From the NCBI GenBank assembly GCA_000004695.1, contig CM000154.2:1152001-1216000 (forward strand): a stretch of 64,000 nt of DNA, in the 5' to 3' direction. This stretch comes from Dictyostelium discoideum. Lineage: Eukaryota. Made by a program: the position numbers and the translations under genes. Below, piece by piece: positions 1 to 57,764 of this stretch. The notes under the pieces are model-generated. The model was not told the DNA's origin and ran no database searches. It saw only the letters and a list, made by a program, of their open reading frames with translations. Each line of letters starts with the position of its first letter. Position 1 is the first letter of the stretch.

Positions 1-301
1 TTTAAAAAAACATTATTATTAATTTTTTTTTTTTTTTTATATATCCAGTTTTAAATATGTTGGTATTTAAATGAATTAAATAGATTAATTAATATTGAGT
101 TGATTATATGAATTGGAGACTATATTTGGAAGCACAGATTCTGGAATACAATAAGCTTTGCATGTTAATTTTAGGTCTATCAAAATTGGTTTTTAAAATC
201 GTTTATTGAACTTAACAAACCCTTTAAACATAAATAATAAAAACAATAAAAAAAATATTAAAAGTTGAATTTTTATATGAATCAGTCAATTTTCGTCATA
301 G

Positions 302-375
302 GTTATAATCAGGATGTAATCATCTGAAACACATGAAATAAATCTCATCACTTAACATATAAATTTCGTGCGTAA
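302..375 (-). ncRNA. Candidate box C/D snoRNA
   Basis: Minus-strand reading: ...AUAUGUUAAGUGAUGAGAUUUAUUUCAUGUGUUUCAGAUGAUUACAUCCUGAUUAUAACC. Box C GUGAUGA (350..345), C'-like AGAUGA, box D CUGA (312..309), and a 4-bp terminal stem GUUA/UAAC. A DUSE-like ACCCATAA lies ~80 nt upstream on the same strand. Boundaries are approximate. Confidence 0.2.
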
Positions 376-10842: not shown

Positions 10843-12430
10843 TTACATAACTGAACAAGCACCTTGTTTTGGATTTTTTTGAAAATTACAATTTGCTGGA
10901 ACAGTTCCTGGCGGAATTTTCTTTGGATAACCATTTAAGATTAAAACTTTTAAACCAGGAGGGAAAATTCCAGGTACTAAAGGTCTTTTAAAAGATTTAC
11001 CCAAATAACAATGAGTTAAAGATTGAGGTAATACACCATCAATTGGATGATTATATTTCTCAGAGAATTTAATGTATTTAAGATGTGATGGTAATGAAGT
11101 GATTGGTTTATTATAGGTGTAGCCAAATTCTACGGTTTGAACATGTGATGGAATATTTTCAAAGGTTTGACTAAAATAAGAGAATTGATGGAAAGAAATC
11201 GATTTCAAATGATGAGGTAACACATTTGGAAGAAAAGGTTGATCGAAAACTTTACCAAAATTAATATTTTCCAAAGAGGGAGGAAGGGTGCCAACGGCCA
11301 AGGGCTGATTAAAACCGTCGCCAAATGTGAGGGTTTTCAATTTTGGTGGTAACATTCCAGCTTCAATTGGATGATTGAAAGCATCTGATAATAATAAAAA
11401 CTCTAAATTTGGTGGTAAGCTTATGATTGGAAGCTCAGAGATTGAGCCCTCGTCGTAAACTAAACAAGTCAATGATGTTAATCCACCAAACTCCAATGGT
11501 TGATTATATCCTTTACCCAAAAATAAACTTCTTAATGATTTTGGTATAACTAATGGATCGAATGGTTGATTATATTCGTCACCAGTCTCTAATATATTTA
11601 AATTTGGTGGAAGATCACCTGCACGAAATGCTTGATTATAACAATCTGATAGAAATAGATATTCAGCTGATGGTGGTAGTGCATGTGCTATCAATGGTTT
11701 ATTATAAGTTGCATTAATGAAATAAATATATCTAACTGACATTGGAATGGTACCTGGATGAATTGGATGATTAAAATCTGGTCCTTTTGTAAATCCAGTT
11801 TTATTTTCACATAAAAAACATAATATAATAACATTATTTGGTATAACATTTACTGGTATTGGTGAATTAAAACATACATATAATGTATTACATGTTGATG
11901 GTATTGTATTTGATGGTGATCTCCAATCTAAAAAAAATTAAAAAAAAAAAAAATATTAAAAAAAAAAAAAAAATATTAAAAAAAAAAAAAAAAAAAAATT
12001 AGTTATGTTGATAAGGGTGGTTGGGTGTAAAAAAATTTCAGCACTAAAGTGGTGAAAAGTAATTTTGTGCGACGATGGTGGTTTTGTCTTTTTTTTTTTT
12101 TACTTTATTTTTTTATTTTCTATGCGACCCCCTTAATTTTGCCTTGGTTGTATGGTGGTGTGGAAAATTTTAAAAAAAATAAAAAATCTGCAAATTTTCT
12201 GGATATTTTTTATTTTTTTTATATTTTTTTTTTTTTTATGTATAAAAATTAAAATAATAATAATAATATTTACGATATTCAACTATATGAGAATTTTTCT
12301 TTTCATCTAATTGTGGAGAAAATGGATTCATATTATGTGGGATGTTGAAAATAAATTCTTTAAATATTTTATTATATTCTTGTTGATCCTCATCAGTTAG
12401 ATTATGATGAGGTAAATGATTGCTAGTCAT
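10843..12430 (-). CDS. FNIP-repeat protein; proposed 2 exons join(12274..12430,10843..11927), first exon tentative
   Basis: Exon 2 holds more than ten FNIP-type repeats (…LP.SL..L.FG..FNQPL…). A strong acceptor (T)nAG|AT at 11928-29 requires an upstream exon. Candidate exon 1 MTSNHLPHHNLTDEDQQEYNKIFKEFIFNIPHNMNPFSPQLDEKKNSHIVEY ends at donor C|GTAAAT (12273), joins in frame, and carries a literal 'FNIP' motif. Intron is 346 nt. Confidence 0.5.
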
Positions 12431-12751
12431 TTTTTTATTTATATATGCTGATGCTAATTGATTTATTTTTGTAATTTAATTGTACTTAAAAAAAAATTGA
12501 AAATTGTTTTTAAATTGTGTGAAATCCAATTTAAAACAATTTAAATAATTTTTTTTTATAATTAATTAATTAATTAATTAATGATTTTTGATTAATAAAT
12601 AAGGTGGATCTTGATTAGAGAAAAAAAAAAAAATAAAAAAAAATTTTGTTCCTTTGAAATTTGGAGGAGCGACTATTATTATTACAATGTTGTTAGATTT
12701 TTTTTATTATTATACACTTATTTTTAAAAAATTAAAAAAAAAAAAAAAAAA

Positions 12752-14707: not shown

Positions 14708-17551
14708 TTAATTTGTTTTTATGGTATCAGGATCGTCCAATTTAATTTCACCAATATCAGTTGAGATATTTCTAAGAGAATATTTTGAAGGATCACCTAA
14801 ACGACCCAAACGTTCACTTATTAATGATAAAAATGGACCAACTAAAGTTGGAAGATATTCTAAAACTGGTCTCTTTTCTTTCTTTTCCTTTTCTAAATCA
14901 AATTCTTCTTCTTCTTCTTCTTGTTCTTCTTTGTTATCTTTTTCTTTTTCGCTTTCTTTTTGTTCTGGTTCAGAATCTTTTTTATCATTTTTATTTTTTT
15001 TATTTTTTTCATCCTTTTCAATATTTTTCTTTGTTGCTTCTTTATTACCAACTTCCATTCTCCATTCTCTATATTGTATGACACTATCTAATTCTGCAAT
15101 AATTAATTTCTTTAAATTTGGTGAAAGTGGGTCAAAGATTTGTTTTGAAACATCAACTTCTTCATCCTTTAAAAATTGTAATAAACCTAATAACCAACAA
15201 AGTGATAAAGATAATAAACCTGTTTTTTGTTCTGTTTCTTGTTGTGGTGGTTGTTGTTCTGATGTTGATTTTTGATCACTATTTTCACCATTTGGAATTG
15301 GTGATACAGGATTTGATGATGATGAATCTGCTGAATGAAATACTGGTGAATCAAATTGAATCTTTGCATCTGCAACAACCAATTCATGAATTAATTCATA
15401 GATTCTTTCCATTAAAGTTGTATTAACCTCTTCAAAAAGTACTAATCTTTCTGCCATTGTAATTGCTTGTTTTCTATCTTTTTTGAATTTCTTTTTAATA
15501 TTTTTACTCTTTTCTTTTTGATTATCTGTATTTGTACCTAAAAAATCACTAATATCACTTGTGAATTTTGTAAACATTGATGATTCTTTTGGATTTGGTG
15601 ATACAACAACTGTTGGAGTAGTAGTTGTAGTTGTAGTAGTTGTTGAGGTTGTAGTTGAAGTAACAATTATTGGTGAATCAGATGGAGAATCAATTGAGAA
15701 TTCACCACTATCAATATGACCACTATCATTTATTGGACTAGTTGATTCAATACCAATTTTAATTGGAGTTGAAGGTTGAGTTGAAGCCTTGGCATTTGTA
15801 TTGGTGGTTGAGGTAGTTTTTGATTTAAACCAACCTAAAGATTTTGAAAGTAAACCTTTTTTTTCTTCAGTTTGAGGTGGTATTACAAAGGTATCAGAAG
15901 GTGTACCATTATTGAAACTATTACTAGCACTATTATTAATACTATTTGATTTACTACTACTATTACTACCACCTCCATTTACAAATTGATCATCAGTGAT
16001 TTCATCACCACTTAATTCGAAATCATCTACTTCATCTTCACCAACTAAATTACCAGTTTCAGCTGCAACAATTAATTTTTTAATGACTCTTGCTAAACGT
16101 TCAAAGTGATTACCAATATTAGCCTTACAAAATAATTTACCCAATGGTTCATAGAGTACTGGTAAGAGTTCACGAATGATTTCAATCATCTCTTCATTAC
16201 CAAGTATTTCAACGAAATCTTCTTTCTCCTTTTTTCTTTTCTCTAATTTTGCATACTCAAAGAGTGATTTAAATTGTTCTTCATTCAATTGTTGTAAGAT
16301 TGAAGCATCCAATGATGGAGAACCTGGCCATTGATATTGAAGTATTGAAATTGCCGATGGAATCTCTTTGAATTGTAAAATGGGTGAACCAGCGGCATCG
16401 GAAACATGATGAGAATTGTAAGCGAATCCTTTAATTTTTGCTAAAACTTGTTTACGTACGGCATGTTTTAAATCGGATAAATCTTGTTCGGCCTTTTTAT
16501 GAGCTTTCTTTGCGGTACGTTCAGTTTTTGCCGCCTCAACCATTACGGAACAAATGGTTTGCATTAAATTTCTTGCACCAAATGGTTTGGCTAAAAACAT
16601 TAAAATCATACCTTTCAAGAGTGTAACTGGATTGGCGATATTGAGGGATGCTTTGATCGCAGTGATTGGGGTTATCATGTATAGACGTTTTAATTTGGTG
16701 ACTTGTTTTGGGTCCCTCATCTCTCTCTCCATCCAAAGTGATAGAATCTTAATCATAATCTGTATAAACTCTGATAGATCCGGTGGCAAATCCTTGACAT
16801 TCTTTGTTTGAAGTATTGTACCAAACAAATAGCCAATACCATTGGTCGATGAGCCACCCTCCTTATTACGCTCCTCAATGTTCATGACGATCACCTGAGT
16901 CACCTCTGTTAGACGACGTTGTAATCTAACGATGGTTTCATCACGCTCGACATCGTAGATATTGTTCTTTCTTTTCTCTTCCTCCTTCTCATCTTCAATA
17001 TCCTCTAGGGTGTCTTGTTGTTTCAACTTTACAATTTTATCTGGTTTATACTTTTGCAAACGCTCCCATTCCTCTTTATTATAGTCTTTGAACACCTTTA
17101 ATGTTTTATCTTTTTGCTTCTCCTGTGGTGTTCTTAATGCAATATCAAAACATTTCACCACAAACTTTCTAAATTGGTCATTGGTCTCTTGTTTGGTGGC
17201 AATTTGTGATTGAATTATAATATGTGGTAATCTATCAATCAATTGTTGAAATCTAATCTTTGCTTGTTGCTTTGATGTCAACAAAGGAATCGATGTTAAT
17301 TGTCCAAATAAAAATTTTAAAAATAATGTTTCAGTTACATTTTGTGAATTGCTAAAATAAATTTTAACCTCATCTTGTACTGAATATTTTAATAATTGTT
17401 GTTTTAAATATGATTCTTGTTCATATGATAATTTAAATTGTTCATTTAATTCTTTTTTTAATTCTTCATTTTCATTATTTTTATTAATATTAATTTCTAA
17501 TGTTTCTTTAGTTATAATTTCAATTGATTCTTTATTTTCTAAATTTTCCAT
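14708..17551 (-). CDS. Large (947 aa) conserved-looking protein of unknown function, single exon; acidic/K-rich C-terminus and S/T-rich linker
   Basis: ATG at 17551. Structured regions such as 'IYDVERDETIVRLQRRLTEVTQVIVMNIEERNK' and 'LSLWMEREMRDPKQVTKLKRLYMITPITAIKASLNIANPVTLLKGMILMFLAKPFGARNLMQTICSVMVEAAKTER' look domain-like, but I cannot assign a family. Confidence 0.55.
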   Translation of the reverse strand: MENLENKESIEIITKETLEININKNNENEELKKELNEQFKLSYEQESYLKQQLLKYSVQDEVKIYFSNSQNVTETLFLKFLFGQLTSIPLLTSKQQAKIRFQQLIDRLPHIIIQSQIATKQETNDQFRKFVVKCFDIALRTPQEKQKDKTLKVFKDYNKEEWERLQKYKPDKIVKLKQQDTLEDIEDEKEEEKRKNNIYDVERDETIVRLQRRLTEVTQVIVMNIEERNKEGGSSTNGIGYLFGTILQTKNVKDLPPDLSEFIQIMIKILSLWMEREMRDPKQVTKLKRLYMITPITAIKASLNIANPVTLLKGMILMFLAKPFGARNLMQTICSVMVEAAKTERTAKKAHKKAEQDLSDLKHAVRKQVLAKIKGFAYNSHHVSDAAGSPILQFKEIPSAISILQYQWPGSPSLDASILQQLNEEQFKSLFEYAKLEKRKKEKEDFVEILGNEEMIEIIRELLPVLYEPLGKLFCKANIGNHFERLARVIKKLIVAAETGNLVGEDEVDDFELSGDEITDDQFVNGGGSNSSSKSNSINNSASNSFNNGTPSDTFVIPPQTEEKKGLLSKSLGWFKSKTTSTTNTNAKASTQPSTPIKIGIESTSPINDSGHIDSGEFSIDSPSDSPIIVTSTTTSTTTTTTTTTPTVVVSPNPKESSMFTKFTSDISDFLGTNTDNQKEKSKNIKKKFKKDRKQAITMAERLVLFEEVNTTLMERIYELIHELVVADAKIQFDSPVFHSADSSSSNPVSPIPNGENSDQKSTSEQQPPQQETEQKTGLLSLSLCWLLGLLQFLKDEEVDVSKQIFDPLSPNLKKLIIAELDSVIQYREWRMEVGNKEATKKNIEKDEKNKKNKNDKKDSEPEQKESEKEKDNKEEQEEEEEEFDLEKEKKEKRPVLEYLPTLVGPFLSLISERLGRLGDPSKYSLRNISTDIGEIKLDDPDTIKTN

Positions 17552-31801: not shown

Positions 31802-31829
31802 TTAATGAGAATTTAATTGATAATTATTA

Positions 31830-31864
<35 letters not shown>

Positions 31865-34027
31865 TGTATTTAATTTTTGAGATTTTCTTTTATTTGTTCT
31901 ATAGATTGATTTATAATTTTCATAGTATCTTAAATGATAAATGATAGCTTCTCTAACTTTGAAATCAACATGAGCCGTTGAATATTTGAAATAAATTTTG
32001 ATAAGAATTTTTGTAAAGAATAAACCAACAATGGTTGTAATTGGTGAAATGAATGAAGAGATGTCGGTAAAAGTTCTTTTTATTAATTGATAGGTTGTCT
32101 CTATATAAATGTCTGATACTACATTTGAACTGTACCAAATGTAGATATAAGATATACCTGTAAAAGCATTTGGAATTGAAATTGTTGGTAAAGGTACAGA
32201 GGTTACTGATGGTTCATAGGTTGTTATATTGGTACCATCAGCTTGGTGAAATACAGATTTAGTTAATTCTATTGATATATTTGAATTTGGTCTAACAGAA
32301 TAAGCTATATCATTTATATAAAGTGTTGCATATGTTAAATCTGGTGAATGGTATTGTGTATTATAATAAGAGATTGTGTAAAGTACAAGAGAATAATTTT
32401 GATTTTTTCCAACTAATATAGATCCACCTTCTGAATTGTATGATATAGTTGGGAATCCTTCAATCGATGTTGTATTGCTTGGATAATTTAAAGTTTTATC
32501 ACAAGTTGGTGTTTTAAAATCAACATAAGAACCATTTAAAAAACTTGTACATTCCAAGAATTCTTGATTTGGTAATGTTTCTTCCCATCTTAATAAATAT
32601 GTTTCTGTTGAATTTCTAACTGATTGAATTGTAAAATTAAATGATGGAAGCTTAAATAAATAATTAATAAATTAAAAATTATATATTAGTATTTTAATTA
32701 TTTGTTTTTTTTTTTCCTAATTTTAAAATTTTAAAATAATAATAATAATAATAATAATTACTTCTAAATAATCAATATCATTATATGAAGTTGTAGCTAA
32801 TCTATTTTTTAAATCTTTTGTAGCAATAAATATACCAATAACAACTAAAATTAAAGCTGATACTATAATTTGAAAAAGTGAAAATCTAGATAATGAAATA
32901 CTATATTTATCTTGTGGAGGTATACCTTCTAAAAGTCTTTTATATTTACTTTCTGAACCCATTGTTTCTTGTTCATTTTTAATTGTTTTTTCATTTTTAT
33001 TTAATAATCTATCGAGGTCACCTTGATCTATAATTGATTTTTCAAGTTTTGTTAATTTTTCTTTTGTAAGACAAGGTTTATCATTTTCTAAAACATAAAA
33101 ATTAAAATGATATAAAACTGCATCTCTAACTGAATTTTCAAACCATGATGTTCTTTTTTTAAATAAAAACTTTTTTGAATAAAATGAGAAAACTAAAGAG
33201 AGAAATACTAGAGTCAATTTACCAATTGAGAATGTATTGATTAAAATTCTAATGAGTAATTGTGGACCAGTCTCTAATGTATAACGTGGTACAATATTGG
33301 ATTGATAAATGATTGAAAGTGAAATTGAGCTACAATTATTTCTCAATTCCAATGTATTACTATATTCTTGACAAACTTTATCATCCAATAATGATGTCAC
33401 CAAATTTGGTATATATCTAAGAGTTTCAACACCTTGATCTATAATCATTTCAGTTTTGAATAAAAGTTCAGCTTTCATTGGACCAACCAAACTATATGCA
33501 TAATCACCAAATCTAAAAACAAATCCTGTACCTTGTGTACTATTATTTAAAATACTTTGGATATTTAAATTTATGTAGGTTTGTTGAAAGGTTAAATTGA
33601 ATGGTTCGACATCTATTCTTTGGTGATAATAAATTGAAGAATTTAAATTTTTATTCTCCTCATTTTCTAAGTTTGGGCAAAGGTATTGACGTTCTGATTG
33701 AGAATAATAACAAGATTCAACCTTGTCATAATCCAATTCATTATAATCTGTTTCCATGGTTAGATTATTCAATGAAAAATAATCCATATTTGAAAAACGT
33801 AGAAATACTGTAAATGATGGTACTTGTACAATATCTCTAATTTCATTGTTTACAAATACTTGTTGGTTTAGAATATCATAAACCAACACTACAAAAAATA
33901 TAATCCATCCAATCGTACCCAAAACACAAAATTGGAATAATAAATGTTTGGTTTTTTGTAAAGAAATACTATCAAAATTTCGAGGTGAATTAAATATTCT
34001 TTCATATAATCTATTTAATTTTCCCAT
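31802..34027 (-). CDS. Two-TM membrane protein of an undescribed family, containing two tandem copies of a [cytoplasmic N-term, TM1, ectodomain, TM2, VR(D/E)A(V/I)(L/I)YH] module; 2 exons join(32762..34027,31802..32650)
   Basis: Module 1: MGKLNRLYERIF...GTIGWIIFFVVLVYDIL (TM)...KLTLVFLSLVFSFYSKKF (TM)...VRDAVLYH. Module 2 begins at an internal MGSESKYKRLLEGIPPQDKYSISLSRFSLFQIIVSALILVVIGIFIA (TM) ... ISPITTIVGLFFTKILIKIYF (TM) ...VREAIIYH, then an N-rich tail. Intron: donor GAA|GTAATT at 32761, acceptor (T)AAG|CTTCC at 32651. Joins ORFs 32723..34027 and 31802..32557 in frame. Confidence 0.5.
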
Positions 34028-34483
34028 TTTTTGAATTTGATCAAAATAAAAATCTTTTCACAAATGAAAAAAAAAAATTAAAAAAAAAAAATTAAAAATT
34101 AAAAATTAAAATATTCCAAACCAAATCTAAAATATAAGGGGGTCAAATAGAAAATAAAAAAATGAAAGAAAAAAAAAAAAAAGGCGCACAAAATTACTTT
34201 TCAATTTAATGCTGAAATTTTTACATCAAACACCCTTACTAAAATAATTTTATTTTTTTTTATTTTTTTTTTTTTGTTTTTTTTTATTTTTTTTTTTTTT
34301 TTACATTTTTAACAGGTTGGAATGAAAATATCTTGGGCTTATTATTTTAAAAAAAAAATTTTAAGAATTTATGACCTTTTTATTTATTTTTTAAAATATC
34401 CTTGATTATTTTTGTTTTTTTTATTTTATTTTTTTTTATATTTCAATATTTCTTTTTTTAAAAGATATGATTTAAATTTAATT

Positions 34484-35724
34484 ATGCAACAAAATTTCTA
34501 TAGTAATTATACTAATAACAATTATTATAATAATTTTAATAATAATTATAATATAAGGAATAACCATTATTTAAATACAAATGATCATTCTAATAAACCA
34601 CCAATGCCAGAATTTAAAAAAAAATATATTCCAACATTTTTAAATAAATTAATTGGTTTACCACCATCTCATGATCCAGTTAGTTTATTAAAATTTAAAT
34701 TAAAAGTTTTAAAGATTTTAGTAATATGTTTTGGTTTTGTTGCTATGACCACTTCCCTTTCAATTATTAATTTTGAATCAAGATCAACATCATTCAAACT
34801 TGAACACCAAAATCAAACATATGTACCATCAGTTTACTTATTTTTTGAAGTTCCAAACTATAAAGACATATTCGGATTTGAATTTTTAAGGGAAAACGTT
34901 GCAACAGGAGCATATGATGAAATGGTTGTTCAAGGATTAAACTTAAATGATACAGAAGGTTTTACAAAATCTGGTGTATTTCAAAATTGTGTAGATACAC
35001 CAGATTTCAAAGATGGTTTCGTTATTTTAGATATTTTAGATGGTTGTTTATATTTATATGAAAATGAACAATTACTTGTAAGTATTTTTTTTTTTTTTTC
35101 CCAATCAAAATTAAAATTAAAATTAATATTAATATATTTTTTTTAAAAAAAAAAAAAAAAAAATAAAAATAAAAGATAAATATTTATAAATATTCAACAA
35201 ATGATATAGATCCTTGGTTTATTTCTATATATATTGATGATCAACCATTCTATTTAGACAGTACTGTTCAAATGTCAACCTCATTAACTAAATCAATTGT
35301 AACCAGCCAAAATGGTGACACAACTGAAAAATATAAATTATCAAGAGCAATGAGTTACCCCCAGAAAAATGTAACAGTAGGTGATTTAGTCTGTGATATA
35401 TATTCCTATGGCATTTTTTTTTCAAGTCACTTTGTGTTGCAAGAAAAAACTCAAACAAACTTTTTAGTAATAATTTCAATTCTTTCTAATATTGGTTCAT
35501 ATATTTCATATTTATTTATTGGTTCAGAAGTTATCTTTACTATGATAACAAAGTTTCTTATTAGAGACAAATCTGCATGGGTGGATGATGATGTAAGAGA
35601 ATGTATAATTTATCATTCAAATCAAATTAATACTGATAATTTATTAAGTGAAAATGAAAATAAAAATGATGATGATGGTGATGATGATGATGACAACATC
35701 AATGGTAATAATAATAATAATAAC

Positions 35725-35796
<72 letters not shown>

Positions 35797-36021
35797 GATG
35801 GTAATGATACTGATGGTAATGGAAATAATGAAGAAAGTGTAGAACAAAATCAAGGAATAAATGATGACCAAATAGAATTAGAGGGTGATAATGAAGATGG
35901 AGATGAAGATGAAGACAATCCAATAAACCCATTAATTATGAAGGATCAACTGGAAGAAGAAGATGAAAGAGATGAAGAAAGAAATAATTACTTTATTTTA
36001 AAAGATAGATCAATAAAATGA
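34484..36021 (+). CDS. Paralogue of the preceding gene (single module: TM1, ectodomain, TM2, 'VRECIIYH', acidic/N-rich tail), divergently transcribed; 2 exons join(34484..35077,35176..36021)
   Basis: TM1 'VLKILVICFGFVAMTTSLSII', TM2 'FLVIISILSNIGSYISYLFIGSEVIFTMI', then 'DKSAWVDDDVRECIIYH'. The ectodomain is homologous to its neighbour (ISIYIDDQPFYLDSTVQMSTSLTKSI vs ATLYINDIAYSVRPNSNISIELTKSV). Donor CTT|GTAAGT at 35078; acceptor (A)AG at 35174-75 restores the frame of ORF 35272..36021. Confidence 0.5.
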
Positions 36022-48961: not shown

Positions 48962-49736
48962 TTTGTTAAAAAATTTTATTAATTATTAATTTATTTATTT
49001 AATAAAGTTAAAATAAAATTTAAATTAAAAAAAATAAAAAAAATAAAAAAAATCCAGAAACTAAACCTGGCCAAAGAAATTTATTCTTTGTTTTTTAAAA
49101 ATACAGTGTGGTAATAATAAAATAGAAAATAGTATAAATGATTAAAAAAAACTTTTTTTTTTTTTTACTTTTTTTTTTTATTTTATTTTATTTTTTTTTT
49201 TTACTTTTTTCTATTTTATTTTATTTTATTTTTTTTTATTTTTTTTTATTTTTTTTTTTGAGTAACCATAAAAACGGATCTGTCAAATTTTTGTTAAAAA
49301 GTGTCAATTCGTTGGAAAAAAATCTAGATTTCGTGAATATTTTAGATTTGCGCAAAAAAAAAATTGGTCCAAACAGTTTAAATTAATTTATTTTTTTTTT
49401 AATTTTTTTTTCATTTTTTTTTCATTTTTTTTTCATTTTTTTCATTTTTTTTTCATTTTTTTTTATTTTTTTCATTTTTTAAAAGATATTTTTTTTTTTT
49501 TTTTAAAAATAAAACACTTTGCCAAATGATGGGCGAAAATAAAAAATTTAAAATAAAAAAAAAAAAAAGGCTAAAATTGGATTGTGAATTTTGTGATATG
49601 GAACCATTTAAGTACTTTTTTGTGATATTTAACAACCTTTTACAAAAAAAAAAATAAAAAAAAAAATAAATATTAAAATAGTTTTAAATGAAGATAAAAG
49701 GGAATTTCATTGTTGTTATCAATTTTTTTTTTTTTT

Positions 49737-56299: not shown

Positions 56300-57104
56300 T
56301 TTTTAATAAAAAGTAATAAAATAAAAGATTTTGTTTTTTAAAATCTTTATTTCTTTTTTATTAAAAATTTTTTTTTTTTTTTTTAACTATTATTAGTTTT
56401 TAATTTATTTGTTTGTTTTTTATTTTTTTATTGTATTATTAAAACTTGATATTAAGAAAAATGAAAATTTTAAAAAAAAAATTTAATAAATTAAAATTAA
56501 TACAATTTATTTATTTTAATTCATTTATTTTAATTTTTTTTTTTTTTTTTTAAAAAACTAGATATTTTATCAATCCAAAATAAAGAAACTTTGAATTCTT
56601 TTTATTATAATTATATTCTATCCAATTACTCTTTGTTAGTTTAATTTAATTTTAAACATTAAAAACAATCCAGCCAACCAAATTTTTAAGTAAAAAAAAA
56701 AAAAAAAAAAAATATTTTCCAATTTTTTTTTCAAAATATCCATTTTTTTTTGAGGTTGGCTGGATATAAAAATTTAATTAAAGTGGTGAGAAGTGATTTT
56801 ATGCGGTGTTGGCCACTTTTTTTATTTTCCACGAGTTTCAAAGAAAAAAAAAAAATAAAAATGAGCCGCGTAGAAAATGGTTTTAGTTGAAAAAAATCTA
56901 GATTTTAGAATTTTTTTTTAAATACAGACTTAATTAAATTTAGTTTGAAATAATTTTTTCTATTCTTTGATATTTCAAAAGTGAATTGAAATATACAAAA
57001 ATAAATAAAAATAGAAAAAGAGTAACAAAGTGACTTTTTTTTTAGTTTTTTTTTTTTTTTGATTAAATTAATTTAAGTATTTAATTGTCTTAAAATGAGT
57101 TTGC

Positions 57105-57156
<52 letters not shown>

Positions 57157-57764
57157 ATAATAATAATAATAATAAATTCCCTATCCGACTAATGGAATCT
57201 GATTTATTTTTTATTTTTTTTTTATTTTTTTTTTTTAAGTATACTATAACCCTTTAATGAAAAACAAACAAATATTTTTTTTTTTTATATTAAAAATGAT
57301 TTTTTTTTTTTTTTTTTTTATTTATGATATATAAAAACAGAAATACCCAAAGTGATAAAATATAAAAAAAATTTATTAATCCTTTCTGTTTTTTTAATTT
57401 TTTTTTTTTTCAAATTTTATTTTCGAGGAACATATAAAAAAAAAATCTGAAAGATTACTAAGAGAATCTGATTTATTTTTGATTTTTTTTCGTCGAAATG
57501 AGCGGCGTGTTTATACTAAATCAAAAGAAAAAATGGAAATTTTTTTTTTTTTAAAACTCAATTTTTACCTTCCAAAAAATGAAATAATAATAATAATAAA
57601 ATCTAAACAATCTTTCATATTTTTTAATCAAAAACTAAAAAAAAAATAAAATTTAACACCATATTGAGGGAATCAATTTTAAAAAAAAAAGTTTGAGATG
57701 AATGAAATTATTAAATTTTATTAAAAAAAAGATTTAATTATTGAGAAATATTTAATAAGAAACT

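What the first reader, a model, noticed from the sequence alone, without database searches (positions are those of the whole stretch)
56778..56915. Dispersed GC-containing intergenic module shared upstream of Sib genes and inside/upstream of an FNIP gene
In otherwise about 90% AT spacer, four islands share blocks in the same orientation. (A) 12036-12215: gcactaaagtggtgaaaagtaattttgtgcgacgatggtgg...ggaaaattttaaaaaaaataaaaaatctgcaaattttctgg. (B) 56778-56915: aaagtggtgagaagtgattttatgcggtgttggccac...aaaatgagccgcgtagaaaatggttttagttgaaaaaaatctagattttag. (C) 49285-49350: gttggaaaaaaatctagatttcgtgaatattttagatttgcgc. (D) 57425-57535: aaaaaaatctgaaagatt...cgtcgaaatgagcggcgtgtttatac. Shared cores are 'aaagtggtga(a/g)aagt(a/g)atttt(g/a)tgcg', 'aaatgagc(c/g)gcgt' and 'gaaaaaaatctagattt'. 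B lies 500-600 bp 5' of Sib gene 2. C lies about 350 bp 5' of Sib gene 1. D lies about 1.2 kb 5' of Sib gene 2 and about 250 bp 3' of Sib gene 3. A lies in the proposed first intron (or alternative promoter) of the FNIP gene. All sit on the upstream side of minus-strand genes. Candidates are a shared promoter/enhancer module, a small non-autonomous repeat, or an unannotated ncRNA family.
Basis: seen in the sequence. Interest (0 to 1): 0.5.

Follow-up and report, generated by a model that had tools for sequence, protein, structure and literature searches.

The report
Small mobile DNA element, not a module

Summary
The window is Dictyostelium discoideum chromosome 5.

(1) Island A, the first half of island B, and an unlisted copy E (34135-34238, minus strand) form one real repeat family. 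Leave-one-out profile searches recover each copy at E = 1e-7 to 1e-14. The element is 104-124 nt, starts TAAGGGTG and ends CCCCCTTA (7/8 inverted ends), and has no coding capacity. E is flanked by an exact 8-bp duplication (TATTTTAG). It is cleanly absent from another D. discoideum strain and from three related lineages or species. A is absent from the orthologous D. citrinum intron. B is older: it is present in a second strain and survives as a degenerate copy in D. cf. discoideum. This is a miniature non-autonomous DNA transposon (MITE-like).

It is conserved at orthologous positions upstream of Sib genes 1 and 2. Island C is a conserved footprint that reaches D. firmibasis.

(3) The B-D core is at chance level, and D lies on a 78-nt indel that differs between strains.

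No copy lies near Sib gene 1, Sib gene 3 or sibA. Overall this is an ordinary kind of element with modest interest.

The parts
12012..12135 (+). Element copy A (124 nt). It lies inside the 346-nt intron (window 12273..11928) of the minus-strand FNIP gene and is antisense to that gene.
   Evidence: nhmmer leave-one-out E = 1.5e-14. The termini are TAAGGGTG...CCCCCTTA. The region is missing from the orthologous D. citrinum intron, seen as a gap of about 166 nt while exons and flanks align.
34135..34238 (-). It lies in the divergent promoter region, with its 3' end 108 nt upstream of the ATG at 34027 of a minus-strand transmembrane-protein gene.
   Evidence: 87.5% identical to A and found at 4.5e-11 in the leave-one-out search. 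It is cleanly absent in D. discoideum strain ACTFIW (L011), where the flanks are over 90% identical. It is also absent in D. cf. discoideum Z, D. citrinum and D. dimigraforme.
34239..34246 (-). Left copy of the 8-bp target-site duplication TATTTTAG flanking E.
   Evidence: The 8 nt on each side of E are identical (chance about 6e-4). The empty allele in L011 has a single GATATTTTAAG.
34127..34134 (-). Right copy of the 8-bp target-site duplication TATTTTAG flanking E.
56751..56843 (+). Element copy B (about 93 nt). It is the oldest copy and has a degenerate 3' end. It lies 450-550 nt upstream of the Sib gene 2 ATG (about 56299) and is antisense to that gene.
   Evidence: nhmmer leave-one-out E = 1.8e-07. 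The orthologous copy in strain ACTFIR (L012 9567..9483) scores 4.4e-12. D. cf. discoideum Y has a 66-nt degenerate relative with both termini, TAAGGTTC...GGTTCCTTA. The Sib2 ATG was mapped by tblastn.
56889..56905 (.). Palindrome-containing motif GAAAAAAATCTAGATTT (core 3) in the flank of B, 590-606 nt upstream of the Sib gene 2 ATG. It is not part of the mobile element.
   Evidence: It is conserved at the orthologous position in ACTFIR (585 nt upstream of the gene start) and in cf. discoideum Y.
49266..49353 (-). Island C: a conserved non-coding block about 350 nt upstream of Sib gene 1. It contains the same palindromic motif at 49315-49331.
   Evidence: The four-way alignment with ACTFIR, cf. 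discoideum Y and D. firmibasis keeps AATCTA, GAATCTAGATTTTTTT, AACGRATTGACAC and TTTGACAGATCCGTTTTT. The motif lies 351, 369 and 313 nt upstream of the respective gene starts.
57492..57569 (.). Core of island D: a stretch of about 78 nt that carries AAATGAGCGGCGT and is absent in D. discoideum strain ACTFIR. It is not a member of the A/B/E family.
   Evidence: Pairwise alignment of the Sib3-Sib2 spacer shows well-aligned flanks around the gap. The family profiles give no hit here.

Best explanation
A, E and the first half of B are copies of a short (104-124 nt), non-coding, non-autonomous DNA transposon, a MITE-like element. Its ends are short inverted repeats (5' TAAGGGTG ... CCCCCTTA 3'). 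Between them lie a GC-bearing 5' half (GGTGGTTGGGTG, AAATTTCAGCAYTAAA, GTGGTGAAAAGTAATTTTGTGCG) and a T-rich 3' half.

What is shown: the copies are homologous; the ends are inverted; copy E is flanked by an 8-bp duplication of its target site; E is absent at the same site in another D. discoideum strain and in three outgroups; A is absent from the orthologous D. citrinum intron.

What is inferred: a transposase encoded elsewhere in the genome recognises the inverted ends and cuts and pastes the element, making staggered cuts 8 bp apart. The 8-bp duplication and the TAAGG start (pattern YARNG) fit a hAT-type enzyme best, but this assignment is only tentative. The copies differ in age. B is oldest, being shared with a second strain and a sister lineage. 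A is intermediate. E is youngest.

One 17-27-nt palindromic motif in that flank is a separately conserved candidate cis-element upstream of Sib genes 1 and 2.
For: Homology: leave-one-out nhmmer recovers each copy at E = 1.5e-14, 4.5e-11 and 1.8e-07, with no other window hit below 0.03. A and E are 87.5% identical over 104 nt.

Termini: TAAGGGTG against the reverse complement TAAGGGGG, matching 7/8, with a chance probability of about 3e-5 at fixed ends. The signature TAAGGG..(50-300 nt)..CCCTTA occurs in 321 kb only at A and E, plus one hit in coding sequence.

Target-site duplication: the 8 nt on each side of E are TATTTTAG (chance about 6e-4). The empty allele in strain ACTFIW has one copy.

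Presence/absence: E is absent in ACTFIW, cf. discoideum Z, D. citrinum and D. dimigraforme, while the neighbouring coding sequence aligns almost perfectly. A is absent in D. citrinum; both orthologous FNIP genes encode 413 aa, but the D. citrinum gene is 160 nt shorter. B is present in ACTFIR and degenerate in cf. discoideum Y.

Context: the copies sit in unrelated settings (an intron, a divergent promoter, an intergenic spacer) and in both orientations relative to neighbouring genes. There is no RNA-family match and no tRNA-like feature.
Against: Only three copies were seen, all within 45 kb, and the whole D. discoideum genome could not be searched. Genome-wide copy number and dispersal are therefore unknown.

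No autonomous partner or transposase was identified.

Only E shows a clean target-site duplication. A's flanks (TATGTTGA and ATTTTGCC) match at about 5 of 8 positions at best, and B's flanks are T-runs.

The inverted repeat is short (8 bp).

The gap at the A site in D. citrinum (about 166 nt) is longer than the 124-nt element defined by the termini, so at that site either extra sequence was gained or D. citrinum lost some.

No copy was found in about 180 kb of syntenic sequence from relatives apart from the orthologs of B. That fits a young, low-copy family, but it also fits a purely local duplication process.
Confidence: 0.75

Rival explanations
1. A shared cis-regulatory (promoter/enhancer) module that selection keeps upstream of Sib genes and the FNIP gene.
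For: All copies lie in non-coding DNA near gene 5' regions. The element carries G/T-rich boxes (GGGTGGTTGGGTG) that resemble the G-box type of Dictyostelium developmental promoter element; this resemblance is my own recollection and was not tested. E lies 108 nt upstream of an ATG.
Against: The element is absent at the orthologous sites of A and E in close relatives, and for E even within the species. It is absent near Sib gene 1, Sib gene 3 and sibA. The neighbouring genes are unrelated to each other. The orientation relative to the nearest downstream gene is inconsistent: E is sense, A and B are antisense. A lies inside an intron.
Confidence: 0.07
2. A family of small non-coding RNA genes, or a retroposed small RNA (SINE-like), dispersed in intergenic DNA.
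For: The size (about 100 nt) is right, and the conserved GC-bearing block is followed by a T-run that could act as a Pol III terminator. Copy A folds better than shuffled versions (z = -3.0).
Against: Rfam gives no match at either gathering or permissive thresholds, although it does find the DdR12 snoRNA in the same window. There is no tRNA-like structure. Copies E and B fold no better than shuffled sequence (z = -1.0 and -1.5), the antisense strands are weaker, and the only shared pairing is between the two inverted ends. No A-rich 3' tail is present in either orientation. The inverted ends and the fixed 8-bp duplication point to DNA transposition.
Confidence: 0.05
3. Local non-transposase copying: a segment copied between nearby sites by repair-associated templated insertion or by small segmental duplication.
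For: All three copies lie within 45 kb. None was seen in the 26-kb sibA locus, or in relatives outside the orthologous B site.
Against: The copies share the same precise ends, and those ends are inverted repeats. E has an exact 8-bp duplication of the target site. The inferred ages of the three copies differ. Templated repair insertions do not normally reuse identical end points.
Confidence: 0.1

Closest known systems
MITEs (miniature inverted-repeat transposable elements), in general
   Same: The element is about 100 nt, AT-rich and non-coding. It has terminal inverted repeats, a target-site duplication, insertion near or within genes (intron and promoter), and presence/absence polymorphism between strains.
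   Different: The inverted repeat is very short (8 bp, matching 7/8). Only three copies were seen, whereas many MITE families have hundreds. The parent autonomous element is unknown.
hAT-superfamily non-autonomous elements
   Same: The target-site duplication is 8 bp, and the terminal sequence starts TAAGG, which fits the YARNG pattern commonly cited for hAT ends (established knowledge recalled by me, not a tool result).
   Different: No hAT transposase, or autonomous element with matching ends, was identified. I found no report of hAT elements in D. discoideum in the held literature. The duplication TATTTTAG matches the loose nTnnnnAn hAT target consensus only at position 7. Other superfamilies also make 8-bp duplications.
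[quoted passage not shown]
   Same: They share the host species and are cut-and-paste DNA elements. thug-S is multicopy (PMC4894637).
   Different: Tdd-4 and Tdd-5 are 3.8 kb with 260-297-bp inverted repeats and 5-bp duplications (PMC2836005). thug-S contains an intron, so it is a larger element with a gene. DDT and thug end sequences could not be compared, because Glockner et al. 2001 and Repbase are not available here.
Phylogenetic footprints / palindromic transcription-factor sites (for core 3 and island C only)
   Same: A short perfect palindrome (AAATCTAGATTT) sits in a block conserved across species, at a similar distance upstream of orthologous genes, in otherwise fast-evolving 90% AT spacer.
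   Different: No binding factor is known, and no expression data were examined. The motif is shared by only two of the Sib paralogs.

Membership tests
MITE / non-autonomous cut-and-paste DNA transposon | Multiple homologous copies at non-homologous genomic sites | tested here: met
   There are three copies in an intron, a divergent promoter and an intergenic spacer. Leave-one-out E-values are 1e-7 to 1e-14, and A and E are 87.5% identical. Only three copies are known, all within 45 kb.
MITE / non-autonomous cut-and-paste DNA transposon | Terminal inverted repeats | tested here: met
   TAAGGGTG against the reverse complement of CCCCCTTA, matching 7/8, in both A and E, with a chance probability of about 3e-5. 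The degenerate cf. discoideum copy of B keeps TAAGG...CCTTA. The repeat is short.
MITE / non-autonomous cut-and-paste DNA transposon | Target-site duplication of fixed length, supported by an empty site | tested here: inconclusive
   This is met cleanly for E: TATTTTAG on both sides and a single copy in the empty allele of strain ACTFIW. It is not clear for A (about 5/8) and not informative for B (T-runs).
MITE / non-autonomous cut-and-paste DNA transposon | Small size and no coding capacity | tested here: met
   The copies are 104-124 nt. The only ORFs across them are low-complexity artefacts.
MITE / non-autonomous cut-and-paste DNA transposon | Insertion polymorphism (presence/absence at orthologous sites) | tested here: met
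   E is absent in one D. discoideum strain and three outgroups. A is absent in D. citrinum.
hAT superfamily (as the mobilising enzyme) | 8-bp target-site duplication | tested here: met
   E has an exact 8-bp duplication. This rests on one site only.
hAT superfamily (as the mobilising enzyme) | An autonomous partner that encodes a hAT (DDE/BED, hAT dimerisation domain) transposase and shares the same termini | not testable with these tools
   No searchable D. discoideum genome or repeat library is available, and the protein-search and contig look-up quotas were used on orthologous loci.
   The A/B/E element is absent near Sib gene 1, Sib gene 3 and sibA, and from the Sib clusters of D. citrinum and D. 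firmibasis. Core 3 alone does meet this for the Sib1 and Sib2 orthologs.
Known Dictyostelium ncRNA classes (snoRNA, class I RNA, snRNA) as represented in Rfam | Match to a curated covariance model | tested here: not met
   The only gathering-level hit in the window is DdR12 at 280-354. Nothing is found at A or B even at E <= 10.

The most novel reading that the evidence does not exclude
A previously uncatalogued family of miniature DNA transposons has been active recently enough in D. discoideum to differ between strains. Its insertions place G/T-rich, G-box-like sequence into promoters and introns; for example, E sits 108 nt upstream of a start codon inside a bidirectional promoter of about 300 nt. 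This would create natural regulatory variation between strains. Clustering of the three copies within 45 kb would reflect the local hopping that is typical of hAT-type elements.
Probability: 0.12. Interest if true: 0.55.

Novelty: new member of a known kind. Interest (0 to 1): 0.3.

Why it matters
The transposon literature on Dictyostelium that I could consult here concerns retrotransposons and a few large DNA elements. A miniature element of about 100 nt that is polymorphic between strains would show that cut-and-paste DNA transposition has been active recently in this compact, haploid, gene-dense genome. It would also provide simple presence/absence markers for strain history.

In practice, it warns that GC-bearing islands in Dictyostelium spacers are not automatically regulatory elements. 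Some are young insertions, and comparing orthologous sites separates the two kinds quickly.

The by-product may be more useful to Sib biologists. There is a conserved block of about 90 nt upstream of Sib gene 1, and a palindromic motif it shares with the region upstream of Sib gene 2. These are concrete candidates for reporter-deletion experiments.

Tried and rejected
(1) A raw low-stringency blastn of the islands against the window was swamped by AT-rich low-complexity hits. I replaced it with GC-aware k-mer, nhmmer and composition-weighted scoring.

(2) I tested B-C and B-D similarity within the window against 60 control segments. Neither exceeds chance. Cross-species data later rescued core 3 (B-C) but not core 2 (B-D).

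(3) Rfam at gathering and permissive thresholds, and ARAGORN, found nothing at the islands.

(4) Folding of all copies on both strands showed only pairing between the ends and weak z-scores.

(5) Exact 18-mer scans of the metagenome and prokaryote genome collections gave 18 and 21 hits, against about 17 expected by chance. All are seed-only matches. The two slightly longer ones (L022, L030) are unrelated GC-rich sequence.

(6) The structural signature search gave one extra candidate in D. firmibasis, which is Sib coding sequence.

(7) Literature searches for thug, DDT, Tdd, MITE and hAT in Dictyostelium found no end sequences to compare. The key repeat catalogue (Glockner 2001, PMC311061) is not held.

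(8) I considered a SINE/retroposon origin and rejected it, because there is no A-rich tail and the ends are inverted. I rejected Helitron because a target-site duplication is present. I rejected a solo LTR because there are no TG...CA ends.

(9) I tried to polarise the island-D indel with D. cf. discoideum as outgroup, but that region does not align.

Full report
SOURCE AND CONTEXT. The window is 24% G+C and carries the D. discoideum snoRNA DdR12 at 280-354 at full score. The 947-aa ORF at 14708-17551 is identical to DDB_G0288161 of D. discoideum AX4. It lies on a 5.29-Mb chromosome record of assembly GCA_054883475.1. Three Sib-type genes lie in tandem on the minus strand, at about 42.9-48.4 kb, 50.2-56.3 kb and 57.8-63.4 kb. 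The Sib gene 2 start codon maps to about 56299. No tRNA genes are present.

CHECKING THE OBSERVATION. Core 1 occurs only in A and B and never in 100 shuffles. In leave-one-out profile searches, a model built from two copies finds the third: A at E = 1.5e-14, E at 4.5e-11 and B at 1.8e-07. No other window position scores below E = 0.03, and neither C nor D is recovered.

I then scored B against the rest of the window with composition-weighted ungapped alignment. C (28.9 bits) and D (27.6 bits) are B's best hits outside the family. However, 60 control GC-bearing segments have best hits of 25.5-54 bits. From the window alone, therefore, those two similarities cannot be distinguished from chance.

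THE A/B/E FAMILY IS A MOBILE ELEMENT. I fetched orthologous loci from other strains and species through neighbouring proteins.

Site A. The assembly's FNIP gene call spans window 10869-12456 and encodes 413 aa. Its intron runs 12273..11928 (346 nt, GTAAAT...TTTTAG) and contains A, antisense to the gene. The syntenic D. citrinum gene encodes the same 413 aa but is 160 nt shorter. In a global alignment the exons are about 97% identical and the intron flanks align, but about 166 nt covering A are simply missing.

Site E. The divergent intergenic region is about 455 nt in the window and about 300 nt in D. cf. discoideum Z, D. citrinum and D. dimigraforme. None of these has E's GC blocks. In a second D. 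discoideum strain (ACTFIW, L011) the flanks are over 90% identical and E is cleanly absent. Comparing the filled and empty sites gives the exact boundaries. The element starts TAAGGGTG and ends CCCCCTTA. The 8 nt on each side are both TATTTTAG, and the empty allele carries a single GATATTTTAAG. The chance of an 8/8 flank match in this base composition is about 6e-4. The chance of a 7/8 inverted match at fixed ends is about 3e-5. Because three outgroups lack E, insertion in the window's lineage is the parsimonious direction.

Copy A has the same ends (12012-12135, 124 nt) and is 87.5% identical to E (34238..34135, 104 nt). The structural signature TAAGGG..(50-300 nt)..CCCTTA occurs in 321 kb of held sequence only at A and E, plus one hit inside Sib coding sequence.

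Site B. The element is present in strain ACTFIR (L012, E = 4.4e-12, about 81% identical to the window copy), in a form closer to the A/E consensus. D. cf. discoideum Y has a 66-nt degenerate relative at the same place with both termini, TAAGGTTC...GGTTCCTTA. B is therefore the oldest copy. This fits its 65-68% identity to A and E and its decayed 3' end.

No copy occurs in about 180 kb of syntenic sequence from relatives outside the orthologs of B, or in the 26-kb sibA locus on the same chromosome.

WHAT IT IS AND HOW IT WORKS. A family of 104-124-nt, non-coding copies has short inverted ends, an 8-bp target duplication, presence/absence differences between strains and species, and insertion in unrelated contexts and in both orientations. 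This is the anatomy of a miniature non-autonomous DNA transposon. The mechanism is inferred, not shown. A transposase encoded elsewhere binds the inverted ends, excises the element and reinserts it at staggered cuts 8 bp apart. An 8-bp duplication and a TAAGG (YARNG-type) terminus fit hAT-type elements best. That assignment rests on recalled family properties and on a single clean duplication. No partner element could be sought, so I give it only about 0.3.

The known Dictyostelium elements Tdd-4 and Tdd-5 are excluded as the type: they have 5-bp duplications and 260-297-bp inverted repeats (PMC2836005). thug-S is a larger, intron-containing element (PMC4894637). DDT and thug termini could not be compared, because the catalogue paper is not held.

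RIVALS. A conserved regulatory module is contradicted by absence at orthologous sites and near the other sib genes, and by the inconsistent orientation. An ncRNA gene is unsupported. Rfam finds nothing at any threshold. The copies fold only by pairing their ends, with z-scores of -3.0, -1.0 and -1.5 on the sense strand and weaker values on the antisense strand. There is no A-rich tail. Local templated copying cannot be excluded while only three linked copies are known, but it does not explain identical inverted ends or the exact target duplication.

The boundaries show that cores 2 and 3 lie in B's flank, outside the element.

Core 3, read on the gene strand, is AAATCTAGATTTTTTTC and contains the perfect palindrome AAATCTAGATTT. 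It recurs at orthologous positions. For Sib gene 1 orthologs it lies about 350 nt upstream in the window (island C), ACTFIR (351), cf. discoideum Y (369) and D. firmibasis (313, with 2 mismatches). For Sib gene 2 orthologs it lies about 600 nt upstream in the window (606), ACTFIR (585) and cf. discoideum Y. In the six sequences scanned (about 195 kb, both strands), only one of nine hits at two or fewer mismatches lies elsewhere.

Island C as a whole (49266-49353) is a conserved block reaching D. firmibasis, whose Sib proteins are only 50-59% identical. The Sib gene 2 upstream region shares only about 27 nt of it around the palindrome. This is a credible cis-element shared by two tandem paralogs. 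It is absent upstream of the Sib gene 3 orthologs, sibA and the D. citrinum genes examined.

Core 2 has no such support. The B-flank copy is only loosely conserved in orthologs, and the D copy lies on a stretch of about 78 nt (57492-57569) that is absent from strain ACTFIR.

PUBLIC-COLLECTION SCANS. Exact scans for the 18-nt core gave 18 metagenome hits and 21 prokaryote-genome hits. About 17 are expected by chance in the prokaryote collection. All are seed-only matches.

VERDICT. A promoter-motif reading survives only for core 3 and island C. D does not belong with either. The element is an ordinary kind of thing, a MITE-like transposon, though possibly not yet catalogued for this species. 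Strain-level polymorphism indicates recent activity. Interest is modest.

LIMITS. The whole genome and repeat libraries could not be searched. Copy number, dispersal, the autonomous partner and prior description therefore remain open.

Noticed in passing
window 280-354 (-): The box C/D snoRNA DdR12 (Rfam RF01562, 110 bits, full length) is the only Rfam gathering-level hit in the window. It confirms that the source is D. discoideum.
   Followed up: no
window 49266-49353: Island C is a conserved non-coding block about 350 nt upstream of Sib gene 1. It is kept in a second D. discoideum strain, in D. cf. discoideum and in D. firmibasis. On the gene strand it reads ...AATCTA...GAATCTAGATTTTTTT..AACGRATTGACAC..TTTGACAGATCCGTTTTT. 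It is a candidate promoter or enhancer.
   Followed up: partly
window 57492-57569: A stretch of about 78 nt in the Sib3-Sib2 spacer (the core of island D) is absent from D. discoideum strain ACTFIR, with well-aligned flanks. Its ends are weakly inverted (gene strand TAAAAATTGAG...CTCATTTCGAC). Whether it is an insertion or a deletion could not be determined.
   Followed up: partly
window 56668-56679 and 56754-56765: A perfect 12-bp inverted repeat, ATCCAGCCAACC / GGTTGGCTGGAT, is separated by 74 nt of A/T-rich sequence. The right arm is the 5' terminus of element B. The left arm is conserved flank in ACTFIR and cf. discoideum Y, but their right arms are not complementary to it. The pairing is therefore specific to this strain. 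It is unexplained.
   Followed up: partly
window 31802-36021: This is a cluster of paralogous transmembrane-protein genes without Pfam domains (ORFs 31802-32557, 32723-34027 and 34412-36021). They share motifs such as VR(D/E)A(V/I)(L/I)YH. Orthologs of about 690 aa exist across group-4 dictyostelids, and two of the genes are divergently transcribed around element E.
   Followed up: no
L006 1-24302, L012 1-23082, versus window 42946-64000: D. cf. discoideum Y and D. discoideum ACTFIR each show four tandem Sib genes within the fetched locus. The 3' part of window Sib gene 3 is 95% identical to one L006 copy and 88% identical to the next. This suggests copy-number change or gene conversion within the Sib array.
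   Followed up: no
L006 10001-17196: The automated gene model for the D. cf. discoideum Sib2 ortholog starts about 1 kb too far upstream, with N-terminus MLENANQSIF... in place of the signal-peptide-like [11 protein letters not shown]... of D. discoideum. As a result the orthologous B region is mis-annotated as intronic.
   Followed up: partly
window 12136-12164: G/T-rich sequence directly 3' of element A (ATTTTGCCTTGGTTGTATGGTGGTGTGG) is also missing from D. citrinum. The indel at that site (about 166 nt) is therefore longer than the 124-nt element defined by its termini. It is unexplained and could reflect extra gain in D. discoideum or loss in D. citrinum.
   Followed up: partly
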